Assembly: GCA_964612105.1 (NCBI GenBank)
Contig: CAZTEU010000001.1
Location: 79,115-143,114, forward strand
Length of the DNA stretch: 64,000 bases
Origin: an uncultured Gammaproteobacteria bacterium
Lineage (GTDB): Bacteria; Patescibacteriota; Patescibacteriia; Magasanikbacterales; UBA922
Direction of reading: 5' to 3'
A program made the translations under genes and the position numbers. Each line of letters begins with the position of its first letter. The stretch's first letter is position 1. Below the pieces are notes generated by a model. The model did not search any database, was not told the origin of the DNA, and saw only the letters and a program-made list of their open reading frames with translations. Shown in pieces: positions 3,820 to 47,411 of the stretch.

Positions 3820-4239
3820 ATGGAAAAAGTTCTGATATTTGGATCATTTGATATTTTGCATTTTGGACACATTCATTTGTTTAAACATGCTAGCGAATAT
3901 GGTGATTCACTATCAGTAGTTGTCGCACGCGAAGAAAACATCAAGAAACATAAAAAACTAGAGCCATTCCACACAGAGAAAGAAAGGGTGGATATGCTCA
4001 AAAGCATATCAATCATTGACGAAGTTCTACTTGGAGATGAGGATGATGTGTACAAAATAATAGATGAAGTACGTCCCAATACTATAGCCCTAGGCTATGA
4101 TCAGAGACTGTTTGTGGATAAGATAGCTGAGAAAATTACAGAGTATGGGCTTAACACAAGAATAGTTAGAATTCCTGCATACCGACCAGATCACTGCAAA
4201 ACAAACAATATTAGAGTGCATCTAAATAAGAGCGTGTAA
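3820..4239 (+). CDS. RibL-like CTP/ATP-dependent FMN adenylyltransferase (archaeal-type FAD synthase, cytidylyltransferase fold)
   Basis: 139 aa with GSFDILHFGH (a (T/H)xGH nucleotidyltransferase motif) and VVAREE. Colinear with archaeal RibL (GTFDILHPGH...VARDE). Confidence 0.6.
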   Translation: MEKVLIFGSFDILHFGHIHLFKHASEYGDSLSVVVAREENIKKHKKLEPFHTEKERVDMLKSISIIDEVLLGDEDDVYKIIDEVRPNTIALGYDQRLFVDKIAEKITEYGLNTRIVRIPAYRPDHCKTNNIRVHLNKSV

Positions 4240-4240
4240 A

Positions 4241-5281
4241 ATGAAATTACTCATAGGAAGTACAAATAGCGGAAAAGTAGAGGAATATATTGATGCACTA
4301 AAATCATTACCCTTTGAAATAATTGGGCTTAGTGATTTAGATAGTAATATTCCAGAGCCAGAGGAACCTTTTGATGATTTAGTTTCAAATGCCATACATA
4401 AAGCCAAGTACTATGGGGATAAAACAAACCTGCTGACTTTGGCTGACGATACTGGACTATTTGTAAACTCTCTAGATGGCTGGCCTGGGACACACTCTTC
4501 TAGAATTGCAAATACCGATGATGAGAGATGTGACTTACTCCTCGAGAAGATGAAAGGTGTCCCAAAATCCAAAAGAGAAGCAAAGTTCATGGGCGCACTT
4601 GCGCTCCATGATCCAAACTCAAATGATACTTTTATAGCTCAGGCAGAACATGCTGGTGAGATATTATTAGAAAAAGCGAGTAATGGAAAAAATGGATTCG
4701 GATATGACCCATTATTCTACATCAAAGAAGAGGATAGAACTTATTCTGAAATGACAAAGCCCGAAAAATCCAGTATTAGCTGGCGTGGAAAAGCAATTAA
4801 GAGGGTGGAGTACTTTTTAAACAAGCAGTACGGTGTCAAGCAGATTGTTGTACCTATGGGTATCATAGTGAATGATGAAGGTAAGATACTAATGTCACTT
4901 AGAAATGATCCGCATAATCTAGAGTTCCACAAAAAGTGGGAATTTCCAGGTGGAACTTTGGAGCAGGATGAAAGTATAGAGGATAATCTACTTAGAGAAG
5001 TCAAAGAAGAGGTTGGATATGACATAAAAATAGAGAAATTATTACAAAGAGTAATAACAAAATCAGTATCACCAACAGAAGGTTACACCTATCAGGTATG
5101 CTTACTTCCAGTAATTTGTACAATATTAGAGGGTAATGGAGAATCGGACGATCAAGAAATACTAGAAACCAGATGGATTGTGCCTGACGAAATGAAAGAA
5201 TTGGATCTACTAGGATCCATAGATATCGAGTTACTGTCCGAAATAAAAGAATCAATTAAAGAATTGAGACTAATAAAATAG
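4241..5281 (+). CDS. Fusion protein: Ham1/RdgB-family non-canonical NTP pyrophosphatase (N-terminal) + NUDIX hydrolase (C-terminal)
   Basis: The N-terminal ~190 aa have an ITPase-like pattern (GSTNSGK, ..DTGL...PG..S.R, FGYDP.F). The C-terminal ~140 aa carry a Nudix box GGTLEQDESIEDNLLREVKEEVGY. Confidence 0.7.
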   Translation: MKLLIGSTNSGKVEEYIDALKSLPFEIIGLSDLDSNIPEPEEPFDDLVSNAIHKAKYYGDKTNLLTLADDTGLFVNSLDGWPGTHSSRIANTDDERCDLLLEKMKGVPKSKREAKFMGALALHDPNSNDTFIAQAEHAGEILLEKASNGKNGFGYDPLFYIKEEDRTYSEMTKPEKSSISWRGKAIKRVEYFLNKQYGVKQIVVPMGIIVNDEGKILMSLRNDPHNLEFHKKWEFPGGTLEQDESIEDNLLREVKEEVGYDIKIEKLLQRVITKSVSPTEGYTYQVCLLPVICTILEGNGESDDQEILETRWIVPDEMKELDLLGSIDIELLSEIKESIKELRLIK

Positions 5282-5282
5282 T

Positions 5283-6542
5283 ATGTTAGATATAAATTTC
5301 ATTAGAGAAAACTTAGATTCTATTAAAAAGAATATTTCAAATCGTAGAATGAATGTTGATTTGACAAGACTAATAGAACTAGATGATTTTCGACGAGAAT
5401 CAATAATTCAGATTGAAAAATTGAGAAACGTTCGTAATTCTGGATCCAAAACTAAACCAAGTGAAGATGAAATTTCAAAAATGAGAGAAATTGGTGGGCA
5501 GATTAAAGCTCTTGAACTAAAACTAGATGAAATCTACCCAGAATACATAGAAATCTTAACAAGTGTTCCAAATATTACACACCCAGATGCTCCGGTCGGA
5601 GAAGAGAAGGATTTTGCTGTGCTTGAAAAGAAAGGTAATATCCCTACGTTTGTGTTTGATGCAAAGACACACGATGTTCTTATGCAGGATTTGGACTTAA
5701 TTGACTTTGAAAGAGGTGCAAAGGTGGCAGGATCTAAATACTACTACTCAAAAGGGGATTTAGTGAGATTGAATCAAGCATTGCTAAATTATGCTATTGA
5801 TATAACAACAAAACATGGTTATCTCCTAATTGAAACCCCTGATGTTGCAAAGCATGATATTCTTGCCGGTGTTGGATTTAATCCAAGAGGAAAAGAGACA
5901 CAGATATACTCTATAGAGAACACAGATCTTGGCCTAATAGGAACTGCTGAAATTACTGTGGGAGGTTATCATAAAGATGAAATACTAGACCTTGGAGATG
6001 GTCCAAAAAAATATGTTGCTCTCTCACACTGCTTTAGAACTGAGGCAGGCGCATATGGTTCTGCAAACAAAGGTTTATATAGAGTACATCAATTCACAAA
6101 ACTAGAGATGTTCGTTTATTGTAAACCAAATGATAGCGAAGAGCTACACAACGAGATTTTAGAGATTGAGAAAGAGATTTGTGATGGTCTTGAGCTTGCA
6201 TATAGAGTAATAGATACCCCAACAGCAGACTTAGGGGCTCCAGCATATAGAAAGTACGATATAGAGGCATTTATGGTTATGAAAAATGAGGATGGGGATG
6301 GTTATGGAGAGATAACAAGTACAAGCAACTGTACGGATTATCAAGCCAGAAGTTTAAACATCAAATATAAGGATGAGAATGGGAATAAATCCTATGTGCA
6401 TACTTTAAATGGCACTGCTGTCGTAATGAGTAGATTCCCACTGGCTATTTTTGAACAAAAACAACTGGATGATGGAAGTATTGAAATTCCAAAAGCGCTA
6501 GTTCCATATTTTGGAAAGGATAAGATAGTTAAAAATGGATAA
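5283..6542 (+). CDS. serS: Seryl-tRNA synthetase
   Basis: N-terminal coiled-coil arm, class II core and a typical SerRS C-terminus. Confidence 0.9.
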   Translation: MLDINFIRENLDSIKKNISNRRMNVDLTRLIELDDFRRESIIQIEKLRNVRNSGSKTKPSEDEISKMREIGGQIKALELKLDEIYPEYIEILTSVPNITHPDAPVGEEKDFAVLEKKGNIPTFVFDAKTHDVLMQDLDLIDFERGAKVAGSKYYYSKGDLVRLNQALLNYAIDITTKHGYLLIETPDVAKHDILAGVGFNPRGKETQIYSIENTDLGLIGTAEITVGGYHKDEILDLGDGPKKYVALSHCFRTEAGAYGSANKGLYRVHQFTKLEMFVYCKPNDSEELHNEILEIEKEICDGLELAYRVIDTPTADLGAPAYRKYDIEAFMVMKNEDGDGYGEITSTSNCTDYQARSLNIKYKDENGNKSYVHTLNGTAVVMSRFPLAIFEQKQLDDGSIEIPKALVPYFGKDKIVKNG

Positions 6543-7269
6543 GAAAAATACCACACTTTTTATACTCCCTGGGTGGGGTGGTAGTGAAACAACCTGGAAA
6601 CCCTTTATTAAGGTAGCTAAAAAAGATTTTGATGATGTTGTATGCATTAATCTACCTTGTTTTGGAGATGAGCCTTGCCCAAAGAACCCGTATGGTGTGA
6701 AAGGGTATTCGAAATTTGTTGAAAAGAATATAAAAGAATATAAATCTAATAACAAAAACAATAAGATTTTTTTACTGGGACACTCTTTCGGAGGGCAGGT
6801 TGCAACACAATTACTTTCTACAAATCAGGATATTGTAGATCACCTAATTCTTGTTGGCGCTGCAGTTATTAGGCCCAAAAAATACCTTAGACGAGGTATT
6901 TTATTGGTTATTTCGAAGCTGGGTTTTATAATATTTCAAATACCCTTTTTATCAAGGTTTTTTAGCATAGCCAGGGGTCTGCTGTACAGAATCATAGGTT
7001 CTCCTGACTATGCAAAGACATCTGGAGTTCAAAAAGAGGTATTTAAGATAGTTACAAGAGAGGATTTAACAAGTAAGCTTATAAAAATAAAGGTCCCCAC
7101 TACAGTTATATGGGGGGATAAAGACACTTATACAAGGTTGACATATGGTAAGATTATTGCCAAACTAATACCTAGATCAACATTAGTAGTTATAAAGGGG
7201 GGAAAACACGGTCTACATATTGACAAGACTAACGAGCTTATCAAACACATCAGGAAATTATGCTATTAG
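6535..7269 (+). CDS. Alpha/beta-hydrolase fold protein
   Basis: GHSFGG nucleophile-elbow motif in a ~240-aa protein; substrate unknown. Confidence 0.55.
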   Translation: MDKKNTTLFILPGWGGSETTWKPFIKVAKKDFDDVVCINLPCFGDEPCPKNPYGVKGYSKFVEKNIKEYKSNNKNNKIFLLGHSFGGQVATQLLSTNQDIVDHLILVGAAVIRPKKYLRRGILLVISKLGFIIFQIPFLSRFFSIARGLLYRIIGSPDYAKTSGVQKEVFKIVTREDLTSKLIKIKVPTTVIWGDKDTYTRLTYGKIIAKLIPRSTLVVIKGGKHGLHIDKTNELIKHIRKLCY

Positions 7270-8903
7270 AAATCTTAGAATTTACACTTCTATCTCCACT
7301 GAACATGGCCATATTTGTGTTGTGGTTATTTAGTGCTTTCTTTGATTATGGAGAGCTGATATACATTGCACAACTAAAGGAATATAGACTAGATAGATTC
7401 AAGGACTTCCTATCTACAAAGCAAGGTAGAAAATTCTGGTTCAGGTATGCAAGGATGATGAGAATTATATTTGCTTTCGTTGCTCTACTCTGGCCAATTA
7501 ACGACATACCAACAATGAAATATATGTTGGTATCATTACTTATTGTGGATATAACTTATGCTATGTATGGGGGTCTTAAATATCACCTGACCAGGCCAGT
7601 ACTAACATTAAAAGTAGTAATAATATTTCTAGCCTCACTAGCAGTCGAAGGTCTGCTTTTGATAATAACTAGAGATTGGGCTTTACCATTTTTTGTGTTA
7701 ATAATTAGAACTTTCCTGCTTGCGACAGTTGTGTGGGTACTCTCTTTTCCTACAACATGGATTAAATACATAATAGTTGCAAAAGCCAAAAGGAAGATGG
7801 AAAGAAATAAGAAAGTGAAGGTGGTTGGAATTACTGGTAGTTATGGAAAATCAACAGTTAAGGAGTTTACAGCACAGCTATTGGTAAAAAAATACAAAGT
7901 TTTGAAAACACCGAAAAATATAAATACAGAAATAGGTATTGCAAAATTTATTTTGGAAAGTGATTTTAGTAATATTGATATATTCGTAGTAGAAATGGGA
8001 GCATATACTATTGGTGAAATTAAGCTGATTAGTGAGATGGTTAAACCTACGGTAGGTGTATTAACAGCAATAAATGAACAGCATTTGTCACTTTTTGGAA
8101 GTATAGAAAACACAATAAAAGCTAAGTATGAATTATTGGAAGCGCTACCAAATGATGGTTTAGCTATAGTAAATGTTGACAACGAGCTTTGTAGAGAAGG
8201 ATTGAGCAGATTAAATACTAAAGTACGGACTTATGGATCTGACAGCGATTGTGCACCTACAGTTCGTATAATTAATGTAGAAAATATGAATGGTGGAGGA
8301 AGGATAGAAGGAAAAGTTGAATTCGATAATACTATCTACACAGTTGATCTTCCAATACTTGGAAAACATAATTTTTGGAACTTTGTCGCCGCAGGTCTTG
8401 TAGCCGGACATTTTGGTTTTACTTATGATGATATAAAAGATCAAACGAAGAACATTTCCTTACCAGAAAGGACTTTGGGTGAGTTTGAATATGGAAACTG
8501 TACAATTATTGATGACTCATACAACTCAAATCCAGACGGCTTCAAGGCTGCACTAGCACACCTTGGTACCTATTCTTCAACTAGGAAAAGAGTTGTAATC
8601 ACTCGTGGAATGTTGGAGCTTGGAGGTAAAAGTGAGGAGATCCATGAGCAAATTGCTGGAGAAATTGATTTTGTTACAGATGTGCTTGTAATAATTAATG
8701 AAGATTACTCCGATTCGCTACAGAAAGGTGTTGTTGGTAAATATCGTACTGATATTCTACTAAGATACGAGGATGAAAGTTTATTAAAATACATCAAATC
8801 TCTCAAGCATACGGACTCTGTGATTCTTCTAGAAAACAGAATTCCTCAAAAAGTCTACAATGAAATAACAGGAGCTACAAGAAAAAATCAAAATGACACT
8901 TAA
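7260..8903 (+). CDS. murF: UDP-MurNAc-tripeptide--D-Ala-D-Ala ligase (MurF-type Mur ligase) with an N-terminal ~180-aa polytopic membrane domain
   Basis: Mur ligase P-loop GITGSYGKST plus central and C-terminal Mur ligase domains. The N-terminus has 5-6 predicted TM helices, which cytoplasmic MurF proteins do not have. Confidence 0.65.
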   Translation: MLLEILEFTLLSPLNMAIFVLWLFSAFFDYGELIYIAQLKEYRLDRFKDFLSTKQGRKFWFRYARMMRIIFAFVALLWPINDIPTMKYMLVSLLIVDITYAMYGGLKYHLTRPVLTLKVVIIFLASLAVEGLLLIITRDWALPFFVLIIRTFLLATVVWVLSFPTTWIKYIIVAKAKRKMERNKKVKVVGITGSYGKSTVKEFTAQLLVKKYKVLKTPKNINTEIGIAKFILESDFSNIDIFVVEMGAYTIGEIKLISEMVKPTVGVLTAINEQHLSLFGSIENTIKAKYELLEALPNDGLAIVNVDNELCREGLSRLNTKVRTYGSDSDCAPTVRIINVENMNGGGRIEGKVEFDNTIYTVDLPILGKHNFWNFVAAGLVAGHFGFTYDDIKDQTKNISLPERTLGEFEYGNCTIIDDSYNSNPDGFKAALAHLGTYSSTRKRVVITRGMLELGGKSEEIHEQIAGEIDFVTDVLVIINEDYSDSLQKGVVGKYRTDILLRYEDESLLKYIKSLKHTDSVILLENRIPQKVYNEITGATRKNQNDT

Positions 8904-10125
8904 ACAACATTTCACAGGATTCTCACCAAACATAACACTTCGAGACACCATTGAAGCTGTTTTGTTTTTATTATTACCTTGGAGATGGTTAAAATGGAGA
9001 ACCGGAAGATCAACAATTCAGGCTGAGGCTTTAATTAAGAAGTACTTTGATACAGATAAAGCACTACTACTAGATAGTGGGCGTACAGCGCTGTATTTTG
9101 CTCTTAAGTCATTAGGAGTAGGGAAGGGGGATGAGGTTCTTGTACAAGCATATACATGTGTGGTTGTTATAAATGCAATAAAATGGACAGGGGCAAAGCC
9201 AGTATTTGTAGATATTGGAAATGATTTCTGCATGGATCCAGAAGACTTAACACGCAAAATCAGTAAAAATAGCAAAGTAGTAATAATTCAGCACACTTTC
9301 GGTAAACCAGCAGATGTTGAAAGAATTATAGAGATTGCTAAAGAAGGTGAAATTAAGACAATTGAAGATTGTGCGCATTCGCTTGGCGCAAGACATAAGG
9401 GTAAACTACTTGGAACGTTCTCAGATATTGGTATGTTTAGTTTTGGAAGTGATAAGGTTATCTCGTGCGTAAGAGGTGGTGCTTTAATTGCTAATGATGA
9501 AAATATTTATAATACATTGGTAAAATATAGAGAACAACTTCTCAAGACTCCAATTATTACTACCCTACAGCACCTAATGCACTTCCCTGTATTTATAGTA
9601 GGAAGAGCAACATACAGACTAGGATTTGGTAAATTACTGTTTTTTGTTTCAAAGAAACTAAGGATAATTAATAAAATTATATATAAGAAAGAGAAGGTGG
9701 GGGAGATGGTAAGTTTTTACCCAACTCTTATCCCAAATTGTCTTTCAAAAATACTAATTAACCAGTTAAGGGAGATAGATGAAGTAAATAACCACAGGAA
9801 AAAAATTGCTAAGATTTATGATAAGCAAATTTTGAATAATGATGATGTTGTGCTTCCCAAATATAACAATGAATCAATATATTTAAGATATACAATCCTC
9901 TCCGATAACCCATCTGCAATTGCAAGAAGGGCTAAAAAGAAAGGAATTATCCTTGGGGACTGGTATAATACAGTAATTGCTCCTAAGGACTCGGAAATCA
10001 GTAAAACTGGATATATTATAGGGTCATGTCCGAATGCAGAGAGACTATCTAATATGTCCATTAATTTACCAACTAATAGGCATATCACATTAGAAGATGC
10101 AAAATACATTGCAAATATATGCTAA
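8893..10125 (+). CDS. DegT/DnrJ/EryC1/StrS-family PLP-dependent aminotransferase (amino-sugar type)
   Basis: Fold-type I aminotransferase pattern; a conserved lysine region (SFGSDKVIS) is consistent with sugar aminotransferases. Confidence 0.6.
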   Translation: MTLKQHFTGFSPNITLRDTIEAVLFLLLPWRWLKWRTGRSTIQAEALIKKYFDTDKALLLDSGRTALYFALKSLGVGKGDEVLVQAYTCVVVINAIKWTGAKPVFVDIGNDFCMDPEDLTRKISKNSKVVIIQHTFGKPADVERIIEIAKEGEIKTIEDCAHSLGARHKGKLLGTFSDIGMFSFGSDKVISCVRGGALIANDENIYNTLVKYREQLLKTPIITTLQHLMHFPVFIVGRATYRLGFGKLLFFVSKKLRIINKIIYKKEKVGEMVSFYPTLIPNCLSKILINQLREIDEVNNHRKKIAKIYDKQILNNDDVVLPKYNNESIYLRYTILSDNPSAIARRAKKKGIILGDWYNTVIAPKDSEISKTGYIIGSCPNAERLSNMSINLPTNRHITLEDAKYIANIC

Positions 10126-11156
10126 AAATAAAAGCAATTAATGATGAGAAGGTGTGGGAGCGTTTTATAGCTGAGCAGTCAAACACTACATTCGTCCAAG
10201 CTCCTGCATATGGTGACTTCTATAAATCTATAGGTGAAAACTATTGGATTTTTGGTGTTTATGATAATGATCGTATTGTTGGTGGCTCACTTGTTGTTAG
10301 TGTACACGCAAGAAGAGGGGACTTTCTTTATCTTCCATATGGTCCTATATTAGACGATGATATTGATTTAACAAAGGTTGACGAAGCTTTAGATATTTTC
10401 TACAAATATCTTAAAGCATTTGCTGAAGATAGAAAGTATGATTTTATCAGAGTAAGTCCGTTTGTGGAAAATTCCAAACATCATATTGTTAGATATAGAA
10501 AGAATGGATTTAGATCTGCACCAATGCATATTTTAGCGGAGACAACTTGGATGTTAGATGTGAAAAAAAGTGAAGAGAAGTTACTTAGAGAAATGAAAAA
10601 GAACCACAGAAATTTAATTAATAGGTGTAAAAACGCTGGAGTAAAGATAGTAAAGAGTACAAATGCCCATGATCTTGCTAAACTAGATAAACTTCTTACT
10701 GAGACAGCGCATCGTCATAAATTCGTCAGATTTTCACAGGAATACATAGAAAAAGAATTTCAGTCTTTCTCAGATAATGATAATACAGCACTATTTCTTG
10801 CATATCTCCCAGATGGCACATTGGATTCAGCAGCTGTGATTATGTTTTATGCAAAAATGGCTGCATATCGCCACAGTGCATCAATTAATAGTGATAAGAG
10901 ACTACCAACATCATATCTACTACAGTGGGAGATTATAAAAGAGGTTAAAAGAAGGGGAATTAGTAAATACAATTTTTGGGGGATAGCACCAGATAATGCA
11001 AGCTCAAAACATCCTTTCTATGGTATTTCGCACTTTAAAAAAGGATTTGGTGGAGAAAAACAACAACTTATACATTGTCAGGACATGCCTTTAACAGCAA
11101 AATATTGGCTAAATTGGTCAATAGAAACCCTTAGACGACTAAAGAGGGGATTTTAA
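10119..11156 (+). CDS. FemAB-family peptidoglycan aminoacyl/peptidyl transferase (FemX/MurM-like)
   Basis: 345 aa with a FemAB-like two-GNAT-lobe pattern. Located between murF and ftsQ. Confidence 0.6.
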   Translation: MLKIKAINDEKVWERFIAEQSNTTFVQAPAYGDFYKSIGENYWIFGVYDNDRIVGGSLVVSVHARRGDFLYLPYGPILDDDIDLTKVDEALDIFYKYLKAFAEDRKYDFIRVSPFVENSKHHIVRYRKNGFRSAPMHILAETTWMLDVKKSEEKLLREMKKNHRNLINRCKNAGVKIVKSTNAHDLAKLDKLLTETAHRHKFVRFSQEYIEKEFQSFSDNDNTALFLAYLPDGTLDSAAVIMFYAKMAAYRHSASINSDKRLPTSYLLQWEIIKEVKRRGISKYNFWGIAPDNASSKHPFYGISHFKKGFGGEKQQLIHCQDMPLTAKYWLNWSIETLRRLKRGF

Positions 11157-11160
11157 ACAT

Positions 11161-12186
11161 ATGCGCAGGAGGAAGATACTAAATTTATATGCTCTAAGAC
11201 GTAAAATGACTCGTCGGATTTCTCGTGCAAAGAACCAGCTTTTCATGCCTGTGGTAGCAAGTAAGAGGCATAAAGATTATTCCTGGCACAGGTCAAAGAG
11301 TAATCCATATGTAAGAAAGGATTATAAATACATAAATAAAAAGAAGATTGAAATTGTGATTACTGCTATATGTATACTTACAACACTTTCTCTGCTTCTA
11401 TATCACAAAGCATTTCGTATAGATACAATAAATGTAGAAGGGCTTCGTAGACTTACACAACACGAGATTACAGAATCTGTGTATGCTTCACTCGCGTATA
11501 ATAAATTATACTTATTTCCAGCTAATAGTTATATTATGACTGATACCGCAAGTGTGATGGAAGTAATACAGCAAAAATTTCCAATTGAAAAAATTGAAGT
11601 AAAAAAATCATTTCCAAATACTCTTTCAATAGTCCTAGAGGAAAAGATATCAACTATTATATATGATAATGGAAAAGAGTATTCATACATTGGGCTGGAT
11701 GGTCGGGTTGTCGAAACACTACGAATGGTGGGGGAGGACGAATGGAAGATCACAAAAGAAATGGTAACATCCACAAAAGAAAATGGAGATTTATTTATGG
11801 AGGAAGTTGTTGTAGAAGAAAAACACACTCCACCAATAACACAGATTAAGACTGAGATGGGGGACTACCCCATAATATACAAGGACATGAAAAAGGAATT
11901 AGAAACAAACGATATTGTTATCAGTGACAATATTGCAAGTAGTATAATTGAATGGTTTAATTACTTCGAAAAGAAGACAGAAATTCCTTTTGGATATGCT
12001 GAGGTTACCAACGAAGTAGGGGACACAACACTTCACACGAGGGAGGGTTGGGATATTATAGTTAGGGCGGATAGTACTACAAAAGATCAGATTGAGCGTC
12101 TTGAGTCTGTCTTAAGAGAAAAGGTAGACAGAAGTAAAATTAATTATATAGATGTTAGATTCAAGGGTAGGGTATACTGGCAGTAA
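11161..12186 (+). CDS. ftsQ: Cell division protein FtsQ/DivIB (POTRA domain)
   Basis: Basic N-terminus, a single TM helix and a POTRA-like region (IDTINVEGL..LTQHEITESV). Position within the dcw-like cluster supports the call. Confidence 0.55.
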   Translation: MRRRKILNLYALRRKMTRRISRAKNQLFMPVVASKRHKDYSWHRSKSNPYVRKDYKYINKKKIEIVITAICILTTLSLLLYHKAFRIDTINVEGLRRLTQHEITESVYASLAYNKLYLFPANSYIMTDTASVMEVIQQKFPIEKIEVKKSFPNTLSIVLEEKISTIIYDNGKEYSYIGLDGRVVETLRMVGEDEWKITKEMVTSTKENGDLFMEEVVVEEKHTPPITQIKTEMGDYPIIYKDMKKELETNDIVISDNIASSIIEWFNYFEKKTEIPFGYAEVTNEVGDTTLHTREGWDIIVRADSTTKDQIERLESVLREKVDRSKINYIDVRFKGRVYWQ

Positions 12187-15313: not shown

Positions 15314-16126
15314 TTATATATTTGCCAATACTATACCAACAGAAACAGCAAGATTCAAGGACTCTGCCCCTCCTTTGCCAGGAATTGTATATTTCTCACC
15401 AATCTTCTCTATCTCTTTTCTTAGTCCGTGTGACTCACTACCAAACATATATACAGTCTTGTTACTATTATTCATTTTGCTGATGTTCTCACCCTCCATT
15501 GCAAGTACACTCATATTATATTCTTCGTCCCTCAATTTATTAAGACTTTTAATGGCGTCGCTACTTCTAATTATTTTGACTCTAGAAATTGATCCCATCG
15601 TTGAGCGTACACATTTTTCATTATATGGATCTACAGAATCCTCGCTTAATAGTATATTCTCCACACCGAACCAATCTGCTGTCCTAATAATAGTACCAAG
15701 ATTTCCCGGGTCTTTTATGTTATCAAGGTATACAATTGGACTGTTATTTATAATATCTTCTTCTGTATATTCTGGCATTTCTACAATTGCCATAACTCCA
15801 GAGAAAGTCTCTGTTGCTTTTATCGAACCAATATCTTTCCTACCACAAAACTCAATTGGGACTCTTTTCTTCTCGGCGAGTTTTATTATGTGCTGGATAT
15901 CTTTCTCATCTCTTCTATTACCTTCTATTACAACAACCAGCACTGTTGCATCTTTTAGTGCTTCTTCTACCCCCTTTACACCTTCTACCAAGAACTCATT
16001 AAACTCGTAGCGGTATTTCTTTTGATGAAGTTTGGTTATCTGCTTTTTAATTTGGGGTTTTAACATAATATATCCATAAAAATTTAATAGTTGCTTTCCA
16101 TATCCTAGGAGCTCTCCAGGGTTCAC
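15314..16126 (-). CDS. SpoU/TrmH-family RNA 2'-O-methyltransferase
   Basis: SPOUT methyltransferase motifs. The 5' 80 nt overlap tagA; an alternative ATG at 16066 (MLKPQIK) reduces the overlap. Confidence 0.65.
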   Translation of the reverse strand: MNPGELLGYGKQLLNFYGYIMLKPQIKKQITKLHQKKYRYEFNEFLVEGVKGVEEALKDATVLVVVIEGNRRDEKDIQHIIKLAEKKRVPIEFCGRKDIGSIKATETFSGVMAIVEMPEYTEEDIINNSPIVYLDNIKDPGNLGTIIRTADWFGVENILLSEDSVDPYNEKCVRSTMGSISRVKIIRSSDAIKSLNKLRDEEYNMSVLAMEGENISKMNNSNKTVYMFGSESHGLRKEIEKIGEKYTIPGKGGAESLNLAVSVGIVLANI

Positions 16127-16832
16127 GTATTAGTCTCCAAAGCCATTCCAAGCCAAATCTTCTCATTATTTTAGGGGCCCTTTTTATTTTACCACTAATC
16201 ATATCAAAACTTCCACCAACTCCCATCATAACTTTGACAGATGGTAATTCTTTTATATATCTATTAATCCACTTCTCCTGTTTGTTATGTCCAAATCCTA
16301 CAAATATAATGTCTGGCGCTCTAGCTATTATATCGTCAATAATTAGATCATTATTATCTTCGCTGTGCGGGACTAGTTCACCATCAATTACTGACATGTT
16401 AGGTCCGATATTTGTACCAACGATGAAAAGACCTGGGTATATTTTGTTTAGATTATCTTTTGTATTCTCTATTACATCTTTATCTCCAGAGCCTAAAAGA
16501 TATACCCTCTTTTCCTCTTCCTGTGCAATTTTGCAGATATCTTGCATAAAATCTACACCTGAAATCTTGTTTAGCTTTCCAGAAGAAACGAACTCTAATC
16601 CCCTTCCGTCACATATATTAAGTGAGCCTAGATTTAGGGCATTAAGAAAAGAGTTGTCAATTTGTGCATCTACAAGCATTTCTGGATTAGGGGTGAATAT
16701 TGTATGCTGATCATTACTATTTAAAAAGTGGCGCACTTTTTCACGCGCCTCTCCCCTGTCGACCTCATCTATTCTTACTCCCATTATCTTCATATACTTA
16801 AAATATGTTATAATATAGCAAAATATTAGCAT
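16047..16832 (-). CDS. WecB/TagA/CpsF-family glycosyltransferase
   Basis: Family pattern (TPNPEM..., GxDFM). An alternative start at 16793 (MKIMGVRI) is possible. The annotated start codon lies inside the clpB promoter. Confidence 0.65.
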   Translation of the reverse strand: MLIFCYIITYFKYMKIMGVRIDEVDRGEAREKVRHFLNSNDQHTIFTPNPEMLVDAQIDNSFLNALNLGSLNICDGRGLEFVSSGKLNKISGVDFMQDICKIAQEEEKRVYLLGSGDKDVIENTKDNLNKIYPGLFIVGTNIGPNMSVIDGELVPHSEDNNDLIIDDIIARAPDIIFVGFGHNKQEKWINRYIKELPSVKVMMGVGGSFDMISGKIKRAPKIMRRFGLEWLWRLIREPWRAPRIWKATIKFLWIYYVKTPN

Positions 16833-39886: not shown

Positions 39887-40513
39887 CTATAACTCTTTCT
39901 TTAGCGAGATAATTCTTTTTCTAACAGATTTTTCTATTCTTTCTAACTCTTCTAACTCAAGTTCATGTATCTTCTCCCTTATTGCATGAACTAAATCCCC
40001 TCTTAGTTCTTTTGCGCCCTTATCTAGATACTGCTTTTTCATTTTTTTAATATGTCTTTGTAAATCTTCCGGATATTTTACTTTTTCTGCAACAATTTTT
40101 ATTCTTCCCTCACTAGCTTCTATCATGGTGTTTCCATATCTAAACATAGTTCCCCAAAATCCCTTTATTTTACCCGCAACATCTTCTATATCTTCTAGAG
40201 ATATGTCTGAGATTACTTTTTCAAATATTCCTCGCTGTTCTATGTCTATTATTCGATCAGTTGTAATTACGAGAGCGTTTTTCTGCCAAATATAAAGCGT
40301 GTGAATAAGCCAGATTACAGCAAGGACAATTGGAACAACAAATAACATCTGCCCCCATTGTCCATGTTGGAACAACCAAAACATGAAAAAGAATGGGGTT
40401 GCAAATAGTATTGCAATTCCAAACCAGCTCCAAAAATATGTTAGCCAATATCTATGTATTACATGACTAATTTTTTCTTTTTCCCCAAGTTTAATTTTTT
40501 TCTCGAGCCCCAT
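39887..40513 (-). CDS. Membrane protein with bacterial PH-like (YdbT/DUF304-type) domain and C-terminal coiled-coil
   Basis: Two N-terminal TM helices, then ..LVITTDRIIDIE.. (bPH_2-like). Confidence 0.4.
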   Translation of the reverse strand: MGLEKKIKLGEKEKISHVIHRYWLTYFWSWFGIAILFATPFFFMFWLFQHGQWGQMLFVVPIVLAVIWLIHTLYIWQKNALVITTDRIIDIEQRGIFEKVISDISLEDIEDVAGKIKGFWGTMFRYGNTMIEASEGRIKIVAEKVKYPEDLQRHIKKMKKQYLDKGAKELRGDLVHAIREKIHELELEELERIEKSVRKRIISLKKEL

Positions 40514-41789
40514 AGACTAATTTTATTGCGTCTCTAACAAATTGCCTATCGTCCCATGGAATAATTTTGTCGTTTTTTAGACACATTCCCTGCTCTGATC
40601 CTTTTCCACTTACAATTACTAAATCACCTTTTTGTGCCATAGATATTGCTTCTTCTATAGCTTCCTTTCTGTCTAATATCTCAAACAGGTCCTCATTAAG
40701 TGTTTTACCAACTTCTTTTGCCCCCTTTGAAACCTGTGCCATTATTTCTAGTGGATCCTCATCATAAGGATCTTCATCAGTAATGATAAATATGTCTGCT
40801 TTTTCTCCAACCAATCTACCAATTGGCTCTCTTCTTGATTTATCTCTTCCGCCACCTGTAGCACCACAAACATGAATAATTCTTTTCGGTTTTAGAAGAT
40901 CAACAACAGAATATAATGCATCTAATGCTTTTAACTCAAAAGCATAGTCTACTATTACATCAAAACCTTCTTCTTTTGCCTCACCAATAAACTCAACTCT
41001 TCCAGGAGCATTTGTTAATTCACCAATTGTTTTATCTATTATACCCCAATCTACGCCGAATGTGCGAGCAATGGACACAGCACAAAGAATATTCATAGCA
41101 TTATGCTCGCCATAGATTGGTGAAGTAAAACTTCTTTTATTTATAGAAAAACTTATCCCTGCTTTTGATGAAGTTACATTAGACAGTGTAAAGTCTCCAC
41201 TCTTCTTTCCAAAAGTAACTTTCTTTGAAAAACCATAATTTATAAACTCCCCCGACTCATCCAAATCCCCATTAATTATGGCTGTCCTATTTTTTCCAAG
41301 TGATGCTGTATACGAAAACAACTTCTTCTTTGCATTCTTATACCTCTTAAAATTACCGTGTGATTCAATATGCTCGGGATATAAATTTGTAAGAACAGCC
41401 GTATTGTAATCAATAAATCTATGCCTGTGTTGCACAATTCCTTCTGAGGTTGTCTCTACGATAGCAATTTCACATTTCTTTTCTACCATTTCCCTCAGGA
41501 ATTTTTGTACTTGCATTTTACCAAGCATTGTCATTTTTTGGTCGTTTAGTTTATCTTTACCTGCAATGTAAAAATCAATTGTAGAAAGTGAGCCAACTAC
41601 TTTTCCTGCATTCTCAAATATTTTTCTAAGAAAAAATACGGTTGTTGACTTTCCACTTGTTCCTGTAATTCCAATAACTTTTAGTTGTTTAGATGGATTT
41701 CCGTATTTTATTGCCCCTAACCAAGCATAGAAAAGATGACGAAGATTAAGCACTCGCTTTGGAATAATTTTTTTTATTACTCTTTTCAT
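40491..41789 (-). CDS. murE: Mur ligase, probably UDP-MurNAc-L-Ala-D-Glu--diamino acid ligase (MurE)
   Basis: Mur ligase P-loop GITGTSGKST, a central domain and a C-terminal domain. The specificity call is inference. Confidence 0.6.
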   Translation of the reverse strand: MKRVIKKIIPKRVLNLRHLFYAWLGAIKYGNPSKQLKVIGITGTSGKSTTVFFLRKIFENAGKVVGSLSTIDFYIAGKDKLNDQKMTMLGKMQVQKFLREMVEKKCEIAIVETTSEGIVQHRHRFIDYNTAVLTNLYPEHIESHGNFKRYKNAKKKLFSYTASLGKNRTAIINGDLDESGEFINYGFSKKVTFGKKSGDFTLSNVTSSKAGISFSINKRSFTSPIYGEHNAMNILCAVSIARTFGVDWGIIDKTIGELTNAPGRVEFIGEAKEEGFDVIVDYAFELKALDALYSVVDLLKPKRIIHVCGATGGGRDKSRREPIGRLVGEKADIFIITDEDPYDEDPLEIMAQVSKGAKEVGKTLNEDLFEILDRKEAIEEAISMAQKGDLVIVSGKGSEQGMCLKNDKIIPWDDRQFVRDAIKLVYGAREKN

Positions 41790-46616: not shown

Positions 46617-47411
46617 TTATTTTAGCTTCAGATCACCAAGTGGTGTGTTCTTCTGCATTGTTCCGTCACTGTCCCAAGTTATGTCATAAGTACCATTTGA
46701 GTTGGCCTTTGTAACCTTACCTGACCAATAACTTCCACCGTTCCATCTTGCTTCTACTGCTGTTCCAGCTTTTAGACGTACACTACTAGCCGCTGTTCCT
46801 GGCTGTGTTGTGCCATCGTCCCACTTTACATCAAAAGTACCATTAGCATTTACTTTACTAATCATACCACCGTACCAACTTCCGTCTGTAACCCACTTTC
46901 CTTCTACTGGGGTACCTACTGAGAAAATACCGCTTGATGGTGCTGGTGCGCTTACTTCTACTTTTACATCAGAAGTGTCTGCTGATTCTTTTGCAGTGGA
47001 AACACCAGGGTTTGGATCCAAACGAAGCTCACTAAGTGATACATCGTACTTTGCTCCATCATAATAAGTTACAGTGTAAACATCATCACTAATTGATGTT
47101 ACTTCTGCATCATAGTAAGGAGTACCTGTCCATTTTGCAATGACTTTTGTACCAACCTTAACTTTACCCTCTTTTGGAACCACGTTACGTATGATTTGGT
47201 CAGGAGCAACACACTTCTCACCACTTTCATCGAAAGCAACGTTGAACCCAAGGTCACAGGTTTTGTCTATGGTACCTGAATACCATTTTTGTGATGTCCA
47301 CTCAGCGAAGACGTTGTCCCCAACTGCAAGTGGCGCCACAGAGGATGCACACCCTCCTCCAATTAGAAGAAGAGAAACTGCAAGACCTCCAAAAAGTCGG
47401 CTTAGCCTCAT
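46617..47411 (-). CDS. Lipoprotein with four tandem Tudor/SH3-like ~55-aa repeats
   Basis: Lipobox (LLIGGGC). Four repeats of the form G.kV.A.W....Wy.G.i.k....GtydV.wDdG. Confidence 0.5.
   Translation of the reverse strand: MRLSRLFGGLAVSLLLIGGGCASSVAPLAVGDNVFAEWTSQKWYSGTIDKTCDLGFNVAFDESGEKCVAPDQIIRNVVPKEGKVKVGTKVIAKWTGTPYYDAEVTSISDDVYTVTYYDGAKYDVSLSELRLDPNPGVSTAKESADTSDVKVEVSAPAPSSGIFSVGTPVEGKWVTDGSWYGGMISKVNANGTFDVKWDDGTTQPGTAASSVRLKAGTAVEARWNGGSYWSGKVTKANSNGTYDITWDSDGTMQKNTPLGDLKLK

What the first reader, a model, noticed from the sequence alone, without database searches (positions are those of the whole stretch)
7260..11156. Membrane-anchored MurF followed by a DegT-type sugar aminotransferase and a FemAB transferase inside the division/cell-wall cluster
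MurF is normally a soluble ~450-aa enzyme. This ORF carries an extra ~180-aa N-terminal domain with 5-6 hydrophobic helices fused to an intact Mur ligase. Immediately downstream, on the same strand with overlapping stops and starts, sit a DegT/DnrJ/EryC1-family PLP aminotransferase (usually an amino-sugar enzyme) and a FemAB-family peptide-branch transferase, and then ftsQ. Together these suggest a non-canonical peptidoglycan precursor, such as a modified stem peptide, a cross-bridge, or an aminated sugar.
Basis: partly seen in the sequence, partly recalled or inferred. Interest (0 to 1): 0.5.

Follow-up and report, generated by a model that had tools for sequence, protein, structure and literature searches.

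The report
Membrane-anchored MurF operon lacking ddl
A small-genome (CPR) bacterium has a real but not unique membrane-anchored MurF, and the two genes after it (a sugar-type aminotransferase and a tRNA-dependent amino-acid transferase) sit exactly where other bacteria with this MurF keep their D-Ala-D-Ala ligase gene, which hints at unusual cell-wall chemistry.

Summary
ORF 7260-8903 (547 aa) has five N-terminal membrane helices followed by the central and C-terminal Mur-ligase domains. It overlaps a DegT-family PLP aminotransferase (8893-10125). That gene overlaps a FemX-like transferase (10119-11156), and an FtsQ-like gene follows.

Two corrections:
- The membrane domain is not added to an intact MurF. 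It replaces the canonical N-terminal domain.
- The fusion is not special to this genome. It is a large family found in CPR, Clostridia, Bacteroidota, Chloroflexota and Poribacteria. An EstV-like alpha/beta hydrolase almost always sits immediately upstream. The literature notes four N-terminal TM helices in Helicobacter pylori MurF.

In Poribacteria this gene occupies the murF slot of the dcw cluster, so the MurF assignment holds.

The new point is the gene that follows murF in 80 GTDB species genomes:
- 39 loci have a ~395-aa Ddl.
- 35 loci, CPR by title or by synteny except one 69%-GC 'Chloroflexota' MAG, have DegT+FemAB (33) or FemAB alone (2).
- No locus has both.
- The flanking genes are the same in both kinds (…ftsQ or …mraY).

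Most likely DegT and FemX tailor the wall precursor. A bolder reading, that they replace Ddl, is not excluded because I could not search whole genomes. I found no paper describing this.

The parts
6535..7269 (+). EstV-like alpha/beta-fold hydrolase (244 aa, GHSFG nucleophile elbow). It overlaps the murF start by 10 nt and is the constant upstream partner of membrane-anchored MurF.
   Evidence: Pfam Abhydrolase_1, 74.6 bits. The best NCBIfam hit is NF058580 'EstV family lipase', 89.6 bits over the whole length but below its 300-bit cutoff. A homologue lies immediately upstream of the ligase in about 70 of 80 GTDB loci and in most metagenome loci.
7260..7790 (+). N-terminal membrane domain of MurF (aa 1 to ~177): five TM helices, inferred N-out/C-in topology, with conserved cytoplasmic loops (Q38-K40-Y42-R43-D45; P113-T116-K118).
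   Evidence: Hydropathy. AlphaFold2 helices at pLDDT mostly 82-96 (51 for residues 1-10). Invariant polar residues in 58 homologues. Q38, Y42, T116 and A176 are also conserved in the Ddl-type members from other phyla. The domain alone finds 54 clusters at 50% identity; 38 are 481-571 aa and so carry the same fusion, the other 16 are 73-272 aa. No Pfam family matches.
7818..8903 (+). MurF catalytic part: central ATP-binding domain (P-loop GITGSYGKST at aa 189-198) and C-terminal domain (DDSYNSNP at aa 418-425).
   Evidence: Pfam. TIGR01143 murF, 235.5 bits, profile positions 66-403 of 418. E. coli MurF 1gg4 aligns from its residue 99, and the query's K289 aligns with E. coli K202. The best folds are MurF structures over about 376 columns. 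The catalytic motifs are invariant in homologues.
8893..10125 (+). DegT/DnrJ/EryC1-family PLP aminotransferase (410 aa) of a CPR-specific subfamily. It has a ~48-aa two-helix insertion (about aa 215-262) and VRGG in place of the usual GEGG.
   Evidence: PF01041, 208.8 bits. No NCBIfam equivalog reaches its cutoff. K188 (Schiff-base lysine), D159 and R194 are invariant in 51 sequences. AlphaFold2 pLDDT is 95.2. The best folds are GDP-perosamine synthase, ArnB, WbpE and PseC, target-normalised TM 0.81-0.84. It follows murF directly in 33 of 80 GTDB loci.
10119..11156 (+). FemX-like (FemAB family) aminoacyl-tRNA-dependent transferase (345 aa, no coiled-coil arm).
   Evidence: PF02388, 120.1 bits. 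The closest solved sequences are S. aureus FemX 6snr and Weissella FemX. F306-K307-x-G-F-G-G is invariant in 39 CPR sequences. It follows DegT in nearly all DegT-type loci, sometimes in two copies (L008, L025).
11161..12186 (+). FtsQ-like division protein (POTRA_1) that closes the unit.
   Evidence: PF08478, 28.2 bits. It is conserved after FemAB in CPR loci. No terminator-like site on the + strand lies between 2281 and 12186.

Best explanation
Genes 6535-12186 form one wall-precursor transcription unit: EstV-like hydrolase, membrane-anchored MurF, DegT-type aminotransferase, FemX-like transferase, FtsQ.

The 547-aa protein is the cell's MurF. Its central and C-terminal domains use ATP to add the terminal dipeptide to the UDP-MurNAc-tripeptide. 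Five TM helices replace the usual N-terminal domain. They hold the enzyme at the inner face of the membrane, presumably next to MraY. Their conserved cytoplasmic loops probably take over the substrate-holding role of the lost domain.

This architecture, and the hydrolase partner, are inherited from a family spread over many phyla.

What is particular to this organism and to most CPR lineages is that a DegT-type PLP enzyme and a FemX-type enzyme follow murF. The FemX-type enzyme most likely transfers an amino acid from aminoacyl-tRNA onto a free amino group of the precursor, making a branch or bridge. The DegT-type enzyme most likely makes or modifies an amine-bearing component, for example an amino sugar that may itself be the acceptor.

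Shown: the architectures, the conserved catalytic residues, the synteny and the distribution. Inferred: the substrates, the order of steps and the role of the membrane loops.
For: MurF identity:
- The best HMM, the best solved sequences and the best folds are all MurF.
- The catalytic motifs are invariant.
- In Poribacteria the order is murE-hyd-TM.murF-ddl-mraY-murD. In Chloroflexota L088 it is hyd-murF-mraY.
- PGAP names these proteins MurF in every phylum checked.
- H. pylori MurF, described as an essential precursor enzyme, is reported with four N-terminal TM domains (PMC9448923; PMC9507126).

The membrane domain is real and functional:
- AlphaFold2 gives pLDDT 91.7 and pTM 0.89.
- Polar residues are invariant in the loops.
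- The domain alone finds mostly full-length proteins with the same fusion.

The genes form a unit:
- The start and stop codons overlap.
- No + strand terminator-like site lies between 2281 and 12186.
- The order is the same in Magasanik-, Staskawicz-, Woese-, Gottesman-, Yanofsky-, Wildermuth- and Peribacteria-labelled genomes.

Both downstream enzymes look active:
- DegT K188 and D159 are invariant, and the model has a sugar-aminotransferase fold.
- The FemX F-K-x-GFGG motif is invariant.
- Tandem FemAB paralogues in L008 and L025 recall the multi-enzyme bridge synthesis of Fem systems.
- The window's MurE has DEDPY where DAP-adding enzymes have DNPR (the motif rule is from my own knowledge). 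That fits a non-DAP residue with a free amine.
Against: - No substrate is identified for DegT. No dehydrogenase or dehydratase that would supply a keto-sugar is consistently nearby. Genes inserted between DegT and FemAB in some loci are unrelated housekeeping genes. An SDR and a nucleotidyltransferase lie upstream only in L046.
- L016 and L018 have FemAB but no DegT.
- A lysine epsilon-amine acceptor would need no DegT, so the role of DegT is not explained.
- MurF scores 235.5 bits, below the TIGR01143 cutoff of 288.6, because domain 1 is absent.
- I could not show that this is the only MurF in the genome.
- The strict either/or pattern with ddl is not explained by a pure add-on role.
Confidence: 0.5

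Rival explanations
1. In-situ displacement of Ddl. In these CPR lineages DegT+FemX replace D-Ala-D-Ala ligase. The FemX-like enzyme would build the dipeptide (or another C-terminal unit) for MurF from aminoacyl-tRNA. The PLP enzyme would supply or invert the D-centre, acting either on the free amino acid or on the N-terminal residue of the dipeptide.
For: - Among 80 GTDB loci, the gene after TM-murF is Ddl in 39 and DegT/FemAB in 35, and never both.
- None of 80 metagenome Ddl loci has DegT or FemAB within 10 kb.
- The flanks are identical. Doudnabacteria L070 has hyd-murF-ddl-ftsQ and the window has hyd-murF-degT-femAB-ftsQ. Poribacteria have murF-ddl-mraY, and L021, L032, L045, L052 and L082 have murF-degT-femAB-mraY.
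- In CPR, this ~395-aa Ddl sits right after murF wherever upstream DNA is available.
- The 64-kb window has no Ddl.
- Named CPR Ddl hits come only from lineages not seen with DegT.
Against: - Absence of ddl from whole DegT-type genomes was not tested. Only +-10 kb per locus was visible.
- Fem-family enzymes acylate amines with L-aminoacyl or glycyl groups, and no DegT-family racemase or epimerase is known (my own knowledge).
- Tandem FemAB copies fit bridge synthesis better.
- DegT-type MurFs keep the E. coli-like residues H462 and R527, so there is no sign of a changed dipeptide pocket.
- L016 and L018 lack DegT.
- A PBP2-type transpeptidase is present, which suggests that D-Ala-D-Ala termini are still needed.
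Confidence: 0.15
2. DegT and FemX belong to a different envelope pathway, for example an aminoacylated amino sugar of a teichoic-acid-like or other secondary wall polymer. They are only co-transcribed with murF and ftsQ.
For: - DegT has a standard sugar-aminotransferase fold. The fold hits include Spr1654 and KabA.
- NCBIfam holds a paired FemAB and PLP-aminotransferase model set (TIGR04421, TIGR04422), and both proteins here hit those models weakly.
- A WecG/TagA-type transferase and a small cytidylyltransferase-like gene are conserved a few genes away.
- L046 has a nucleotidyltransferase and an SDR just upstream.
Against: - The pair is wedged between murF and ftsQ or mraY with overlapping codons in very divergent lineages.
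- No glycosyltransferase or flippase is part of the unit.
- The TIGR04421 and TIGR04422 scores are far below their cutoffs (28 vs 250 bits; 22 vs 75 bits).
Confidence: 0.2
3. The 547-aa protein is not the housekeeping MurF. It is a MurT-like paralogue that has lost the UDP-binding domain and works on a lipid-linked intermediate held by its membrane domain.
For: - Domain 1 is absent and replaced by a conserved polytopic domain with conserved cytoplasmic loops.
- MurT, which acts on lipid II, also lacks domain 1 (my own knowledge). MurT appears among the fold hits.
- Aquibacillus (Bacillaceae) has a copy in a van-like context with a VanX-type dipeptidase, where a second, canonical MurF is likely.
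Against: - The protein occupies the murF slot of dcw clusters and is coupled to Ddl.
- MurF is the best model by a wide margin.
- H. pylori's MurF has TM helices.
- The window's MurE also lacks domain 1 without any membrane segment. Loss of domain 1 therefore does not by itself point to a lipid substrate.
Confidence: 0.07

Closest known systems
Canonical MurF (UDP-MurNAc-tripeptide:D-Ala-D-Ala ligase; E. coli 1GG4, A. baumannii 4QF5, T. maritima 3ZL8)
   Same: The central and C-terminal domains match: the P-loop, a lysine (K289) aligned with E. coli K202, and the DDSYNxNP motif. MurF gives the best HMM, sequence and fold matches.
   Different: The soluble N-terminal domain (E. coli residues 1 to ~98) is missing. 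About 175 aa with five TM helices stand in its place. The score is below the TIGR01143 trusted cutoff.
Helicobacter pylori MurF (HP0740) with its neighbours. From memory these are ddlA HP0738 and EstV hydrolase HP0739.
   Same: The literature reports four N-terminal TM domains and calls the enzyme an essential precursor synthase. The hydrolase next to murF here has 'EstV family lipase' as its best NCBIfam match.
   Different: The H. pylori cluster has ddl, whereas this window has DegT+FemX instead. The EstV match is far below its cutoff (89.6 vs 300 bits).
FemX of Weissella viridescens and FemX/A/B of S. aureus; MurM/MurN
   Same: The protein belongs to the FemAB family and keeps the F-K motif. 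It is the size of Weissella FemX and has no coiled-coil arm.
   Different: It scores only 36 bits against the FemX equivalog NF047883 (cutoff 500). The acceptor and the amino acid are unknown. It is fixed in an operon with murF and a DegT enzyme, which is not known for Fem systems.
Sugar aminotransferases of the DegT family (GDP-perosamine synthase, ArnB, WbpE, PseC)
   Same: The fold (target-normalised TM 0.81-0.84), the Schiff-base lysine and the PLP-binding aspartate are shared.
   Different: Identity is about 20-24%. There is a conserved 48-aa insertion, VRGG stands for GEGG, no equivalog is reached, and no keto-sugar-forming partner lies in the operon.
MurT/GatD lipid II amidotransferase
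   Same: It is a Mur-ligase relative that works without domain 1 at the membrane step (my own knowledge).
   Different: There is no GatD partner and no MurT-type C-terminal domain. The MurF model scores far better.

Membership tests
MurF (TIGR01143 / Mur ligase family) | Central ATP-binding domain with P-loop, Mg-binding Glu and the conserved Lys | tested here: met
   PF08245, 132 bits. GITGSYGKST, E245, H275 and K289 are invariant in 58 homologues. K289 aligns with E. coli K202.
MurF (TIGR01143 / Mur ligase family) | C-terminal domain with the MurF-type DDxYNANP motif | tested here: met
   PF02875, 35.8 bits. DDSYNSNP lies at aa 418-425 and is conserved.
MurF (TIGR01143 / Mur ligase family) | Whole-protein score above the curated cutoff | tested here: not met
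   235.5 bits against a cutoff of 288.6. Only profile positions 66-403 of 418 are matched.
MurF (TIGR01143 / Mur ligase family) | Soluble N-terminal domain 1 | tested here: not met
   The alignment to E. coli MurF starts at its residue 99. Residues 1-175 here are TM helices.
MurF (TIGR01143 / Mur ligase family) | murF position in the dcw cluster (after murE, before mraY) or linkage to ddl | tested here: met
   Met for relatives of the same family: Poribacteria L043, L049, L057, L069 and L071, Chloroflexota L088, and 39 loci with ddl. In the window itself the flanks are the hydrolase and DegT.
MurF (TIGR01143 / Mur ligase family) | [quoted passage not shown] | not testable with these tools
   This needs an enzyme assay or genetic complementation.
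Membrane-anchored MurF with hydrolase partner (H. pylori type) | Several N-terminal TM helices in the same polypeptide | tested here: met
   The feature is conserved in about 80 loci from several phyla.
Membrane-anchored MurF with hydrolase partner (H. pylori type) | EstV-like alpha/beta hydrolase immediately upstream | tested here: met
   Window 6535-7269 overlaps murF by 10 nt. Homologues lie upstream in nearly all loci.
Membrane-anchored MurF with hydrolase partner (H. pylori type) | Sequence homology to H. pylori MurF over the TM region | not tested
The link rests on PMC9448923 and on my memory of the HP0738-HP0740 gene order.
DegT/DnrJ/EryC1/StrS aminotransferases (PF01041) | Family HMM above cutoff; fold-type I PLP fold; Schiff-base Lys and PLP-binding Asp | tested here: met
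   208.8 bits against a cutoff of 19.8. K188 and D159 are invariant. Foldseek query-normalised TM is 0.70-0.76 to sugar aminotransferases.
DegT/DnrJ/EryC1/StrS aminotransferases (PF01041) | Membership of a characterised equivalog (PseC, LegC, ArnB, WecE, DesI) | tested here: not met
   Every hit is far below its cutoff, for example LegC 149 vs 420 bits and PseC 145 vs 423 bits.
DegT/DnrJ/EryC1/StrS aminotransferases (PF01041) | Nucleotide-linked keto-sugar as substrate | not testable with these tools
   No conserved keto-sugar-forming enzyme is in the neighbourhood.
FemAB family (PF02388) | Family HMM above cutoff and the conserved Phe-Lys catalytic motif | tested here: met
   120.1 bits against a cutoff of 24. 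F306-K307-x-GFGG is invariant in 39 sequences.
FemAB family (PF02388) | FemX equivalog (UDP-MurNAc-pentapeptide-lysine N6-alanyltransferase) | tested here: not met
   NF047883 scores 36.4 bits against a cutoff of 500.
FemAB family (PF02388) | Use of aminoacyl-tRNA as donor and a peptidoglycan precursor as acceptor | not testable with these tools
   This needs biochemistry.
MurT/GatD | MurT-type C-terminal domain and an adjacent GatD glutaminase | tested here: not met
   Only PF08245 and PF02875 are found. The neighbours are a hydrolase and DegT.

The most novel reading that the evidence does not exclude
In a large part of the CPR/Patescibacteria, the D-Ala-D-Ala ligase has been replaced in situ by a PLP enzyme plus an aminoacyl-tRNA-dependent Fem-type transferase. 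The terminal unit added by MurF would then be made by a tRNA-dependent route, or it would not be D-Ala-D-Ala at all. That would be a new way of completing the peptidoglycan stem peptide.
Probability: 0.15. Interest if true: 0.85.

Novelty: new variant of a known kind. Interest (0 to 1): 0.55.

Why it matters
MurF is taught as a soluble cytoplasmic enzyme and is an antibiotic target. These data show that a membrane-embedded form lacking the canonical N-terminal domain is common. It occurs in CPR, gut Clostridia and Bacteroidota, Chloroflexota and Poribacteria, and by report in H. pylori. It is always paired with an uncharacterised hydrolase. That bears on inhibitor design and on how the last cytoplasmic step is handed to MraY.

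For CPR bacteria, whose wall chemistry is essentially unmeasured, the conserved DegT+FemX pair in the ddl slot gives a concrete, testable prediction. Either the muropeptides are branched or aminated, or the terminal dipeptide is made without Ddl. The second outcome would also predict altered sensitivity to D-cycloserine and glycopeptides.

Tried and rejected
1. Frameshift or mis-assembly of the TM-ligase fusion. Rejected: gene calls are identical on independent contigs and the homologues are full length.
2. A CPR-specific invention. Rejected: the GTDB scan found the same architecture in at least five other phyla.
3. The TM domain as a known family. There is no Pfam or NCBIfam hit, and PDB fold hits cover only the ligase part. 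The AlphaFold-database fold library was not available.
4. Partner enzymes hidden in the gaps between DegT and FemAB. The inserted genes are unrelated: RarA, XseA, EF-P, MBL hydrolases and others. The SDR and nucleotidyltransferase of L046 recur in almost no other locus.
5. A changed dipeptide pocket in DegT-type MurFs. The group-specific positions 462 and 527 keep the E. coli-like residues in the DegT-type group, so this gives no support.
6. A test of whether DegT-type genomes have ddl elsewhere. Only indirect attempts were possible: named Ddl hits, contexts of CPR Ddl genes and 80 metagenome Ddl loci. None could see whole genomes, so the question stays open.
7. Literature. No paper in the library mentions FemAB together with any CPR term, and none describes a TM-MurF apart from the H. 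pylori remark. Blair et al. 2018 was not held. Searches for EstV/HP0739 did not confirm the H. pylori gene order.
8. The TIGR04421 and TIGR04422 paired families as a home for FemAB and DegT. The scores are far below the cutoffs.

Full report
**What is there**

The window has about 36% G+C. Its best protein matches are to Patescibacteria (CPR), and the nearest named ones are Magasanikbacteria. On the + strand a run of tightly packed genes extends from lysS (2352) to an FtsQ-like gene (ending at 12186). No terminator-like site lies on that strand after 2281.

The last five genes are:
- An alpha/beta hydrolase, 6535-7269.
- The 547-aa ORF, 7260-8903.
- A DegT-family PLP enzyme, 8893-10125.
- A FemAB-family protein, 10119-11156.
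- A POTRA_1 (FtsQ-type) protein, 11161-12186.

The first four overlap one another by 7-11 nt.

**The 547-aa protein**

Residues 191-381 and 412-491 are the Mur-ligase central and C-terminal domains. MurF is clearly the best model. TIGR01143 scores 235.5 bits, against about 65-69 bits for MurC, MurD and MurE. The best solved sequences and the best folds are MurF from E. coli, T. maritima, S. pneumoniae, P. aeruginosa and A. baumannii.

The match covers only profile positions 66-403 of 418. The alignment to E. coli MurF starts at its residue 99. The canonical N-terminal domain is therefore absent.

In its place are about 175 hydrophobic residues. AlphaFold2 (mean pLDDT 91.7, pTM 0.89) models them as five long helices, the last one running straight into the ligase domain. 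The ligase must face the cytoplasm, and the lysine/arginine-rich stretches (aa 38-60 and 169-185) follow the positive-inside rule. The inferred topology is therefore N-out/C-in, with loops 38-60 and 109-118 on the cytoplasmic side.

Those loops carry residues that are invariant or nearly so in 58 homologues: Q38, K40, Y42, R43, D45, P113, T116 and K118. That argues for a working domain rather than a passive anchor. I infer that the loops take over substrate holding from the lost domain. This is not shown.

**Not an artefact, and not unique**

The identical 547-aa sequence is on 8 public contigs of up to 372.5 kb. Independent assemblies carry the same gene calls. The 120 best homologues are 490-547 aa long (119 of them 514-547) with 90-99% coverage. 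The TM domain used alone as a query finds 54 clusters at 50% identity. Of these, 38 are 481-571 aa long and so carry the same fusion, and the other 16 are 73-272 aa.

In the 80 loci kept, nearly every ligase has a hydrophobic N-terminal extension of about 110-230 aa before the P-loop, about 175-200 aa in most. By record title these loci include many CPR groups, and also Clostridia, a Bacillaceae isolate (Aquibacillus kalidii), Alistipes, Rikenellaceae, Muribaculaceae, Chloroflexota, Poribacteria and Thiomargarita. Q38, Y42, T116 and A176 are conserved across all of them, so the TM domains are homologous.

An alpha/beta hydrolase homologous to window 6535-7269 lies directly upstream in nearly all loci. 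Its best NCBIfam match is the 'EstV family lipase' of H. pylori, although well below the cutoff.

In Poribacteria the order is murE, hydrolase, TM-murF, ddl, mraY, murD. The protein therefore sits in the murF slot of the dcw cluster. PGAP names these proteins MurF.

[quoted passage not shown] In H. pylori MurF is treated as an essential precursor enzyme (PMC9507126). From memory, H. pylori has ddlA-HP0739(EstV)-murF. I could not confirm that here.

The MurF assignment therefore stands, and membrane-anchored MurF is an existing but almost undescribed kind.

**The genes after murF**

This is where the window differs from most of the family. In the 80 GTDB loci the gene following TM-murF is one of the following:
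- A ~395-aa D-Ala-D-Ala ligase family protein in 39 loci. These are all the loci whose titles name non-CPR taxa, plus Doudnabacteria, Harrisonbacteria and three others.
- A DegT homologue, almost always followed by FemAB, in 33 loci.
- FemAB alone in 2 loci.
- Six loci have neither Ddl, DegT nor FemAB within reach; three of these are cut short by a contig end.

No locus has both Ddl and DegT/FemAB within 10 kb.

The flanks are the same in both kinds. Doudnabacteria L070 has hyd-murF-ddl-ftsQ, and the window has hyd-murF-degT-femAB-ftsQ. Poribacteria have murF-ddl-mraY, and L021, L032, L045, L052 and L082 have murF-degT-femAB-mraY.

CPR do have this Ddl. A Doudnabacteria query found thousands of hits, with names from Doudna-, Roizman-, Wolfe-, Colwell- and Moraniibacteria. 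In the two long contigs I inspected, the Ddl again follows hyd-murF with no DegT or FemAB nearby.

In 80 metagenome loci centred on this Ddl subfamily, hyd-murF-ddl is the rule wherever upstream DNA exists. None has DegT or FemAB.

A neighbour-joining tree separates DegT-type MurFs from Ddl-type MurFs. The DegT-type loci are low-GC CPR-like sequences, with one exception: L046 has 69% G+C and is labelled Chloroflexota.

**The two downstream enzymes**

The DegT protein belongs to a subfamily whose 120 best matches are all CPR-named or unnamed.
- The Schiff-base lysine (K188) and the PLP aspartate (D159) are invariant.
- R194 is invariant, giving VRGG where the family usually has GEGG. That comparison rests on my own knowledge of the family.
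- A ~48-aa insertion is conserved and folds as two helices.
- The fold is that of sugar aminotransferases: perosamine synthase, ArnB, WbpE, PseC, KabA and Spr1654, with target-normalised TM 0.70-0.84 at 18-24% identity.
- No characterised equivalog is reached.

The FemAB protein has the size of Weissella FemX and no coiled-coil arm. Its closest solved relatives are FemX proteins. F306-K307-x-GFGG is invariant in 39 CPR sequences. This corresponds to the Phe-Lys catalytic motif of FemX (my own knowledge). Some loci carry two FemAB genes (L008, L025).

**How it most likely works**

1. MurF, held in the membrane, completes the UDP-MurNAc-peptide next to MraY.
2. The FemX-like enzyme transfers an amino acid from aminoacyl-tRNA to a free amine of the precursor.
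3. The DegT-like enzyme makes or alters an amine-bearing component, possibly an amino sugar that is itself the acceptor.

Step 1 is well supported by homology and gene position. Steps 2 and 3 are inferences from family membership and tight coupling.

One supporting detail is that the window's MurE (40491-41789, - strand) has DEDPY where DAP-adding enzymes have DNPR. That fits a non-DAP residue with a free side-chain amine.

Weak points:
- No conserved enzyme supplies a keto-sugar.
- Two loci lack DegT.
- The either/or pattern with ddl is not explained.

**Rivals**

*DegT+FemX displace Ddl.* The positional evidence is strong, but it covers only +-10 kb per genome. I could not search whole genomes, so a ddl elsewhere cannot be excluded. 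Fem enzymes are not known to make D-Ala-D-Ala, and DegT-family racemases are unknown. DegT-type MurFs keep the E. coli-like residues at the two group-specific positions of the C-terminal domain. A PBP2-type transpeptidase is present. I put this reading at about 0.15.

*The pair serves another envelope polymer and is only co-transcribed.* I put this at about 0.2.

*The ligase is a MurT-like enzyme acting on a lipid-linked substrate.* I put this at about 0.07. The window's MurE also lacks its N-terminal domain without gaining a membrane segment, so loss of domain 1 is not specific evidence for a lipid substrate.

**Novelty and verdict**

Membrane-anchored MurF is a known but nearly unstudied kind. 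Its breadth, its constant hydrolase partner and its dedicated ~395-aa Ddl appear not to have been described in the searched library. No paper there links FemAB with CPR.

The window is a new operon variant of that kind, in which DegT+FemX stand in the ddl slot. I rate it as a new variant of a known kind, with interest 0.55.

Noticed in passing
window 40491-41789 (- strand): The window's MurE (432 aa; TIGR01085 296 bits, above its cutoff) also lacks the canonical N-terminal domain. The match starts at profile position 70 of 472 and protein residue 21. A HAD-family ORF ends 2 nt upstream, so there is no room for an extension. Its specificity motif reads DEDPY instead of DNPR.
   Followed up: partly
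window 6535-7269; loci L010-L173: An EstV-like alpha/beta hydrolase is the near-universal upstream partner of membrane-anchored MurF in every phylum seen. Its role in peptidoglycan synthesis is unknown.
   Followed up: partly
L043, L047-L089, L090, L091, L094-L173: The Ddl linked to membrane-anchored MurF is a distinct long form of about 385-410 aa. It is found directly after hyd-murF in CPR, Firmicutes, Bacteroidota, Chloroflexota and Poribacteria.
   Followed up: partly
L067 9225-13664 (Aquibacillus kalidii): The order is hydrolase, TM-MurF, Ddl-family ligase, VanX-type D-Ala-D-Ala dipeptidase (Peptidase_M15). This van-like arrangement in a Bacillaceae isolate suggests that in some Firmicutes the module is an accessory precursor-remodelling system.
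   Followed up: no
L046 6108-13835 (69% G+C, labelled Chloroflexota): This is the only high-GC, non-CPR-labelled locus with the hyd-murF-degT-femAB order. A sugar nucleotidyltransferase, a 434-aa unknown protein and a short-chain dehydrogenase lie directly upstream. They could be the missing keto-sugar-forming steps.
   Followed up: partly
L008 12833-14856; L025 1-939 and 4226-5251: Some CPR loci carry two FemAB paralogues, in tandem or flanking murF, as in multi-step bridge synthesis.
   Followed up: no
L010, L014, L021, L052 (record titles): These TPA MAGs are titled 'uncultured Gammaproteobacteria' but have CPR-type synteny and low GC. Several titled 'uncultured Candidatus Saccharibacteria' may also be only loosely named. 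Taxon labels of these records should not be taken at face value.
   Followed up: no
window 46617-47411 (- strand): A 264-aa protein immediately downstream of ftsW-murG consists of repeated Tudor/Agenet-like (SH3-like barrel) domains. This is unusual for a bacterial cell-wall operon.
   Followed up: no
window 4241-5281: A HAM1 (non-canonical NTP pyrophosphatase) and NUDIX fusion protein is conserved in the same upstream position in related CPR loci, next to a 139-aa cytidylyltransferase-like gene (3820-4239).
   Followed up: no
window 16047-16832 (- strand): A WecG/TagA-family glycosyltransferase lies a few genes downstream and is conserved in the same place in relatives (L001, L004, L008, L092). 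It hints at a teichoic-acid-like linkage unit in these CPR bacteria.
   Followed up: no
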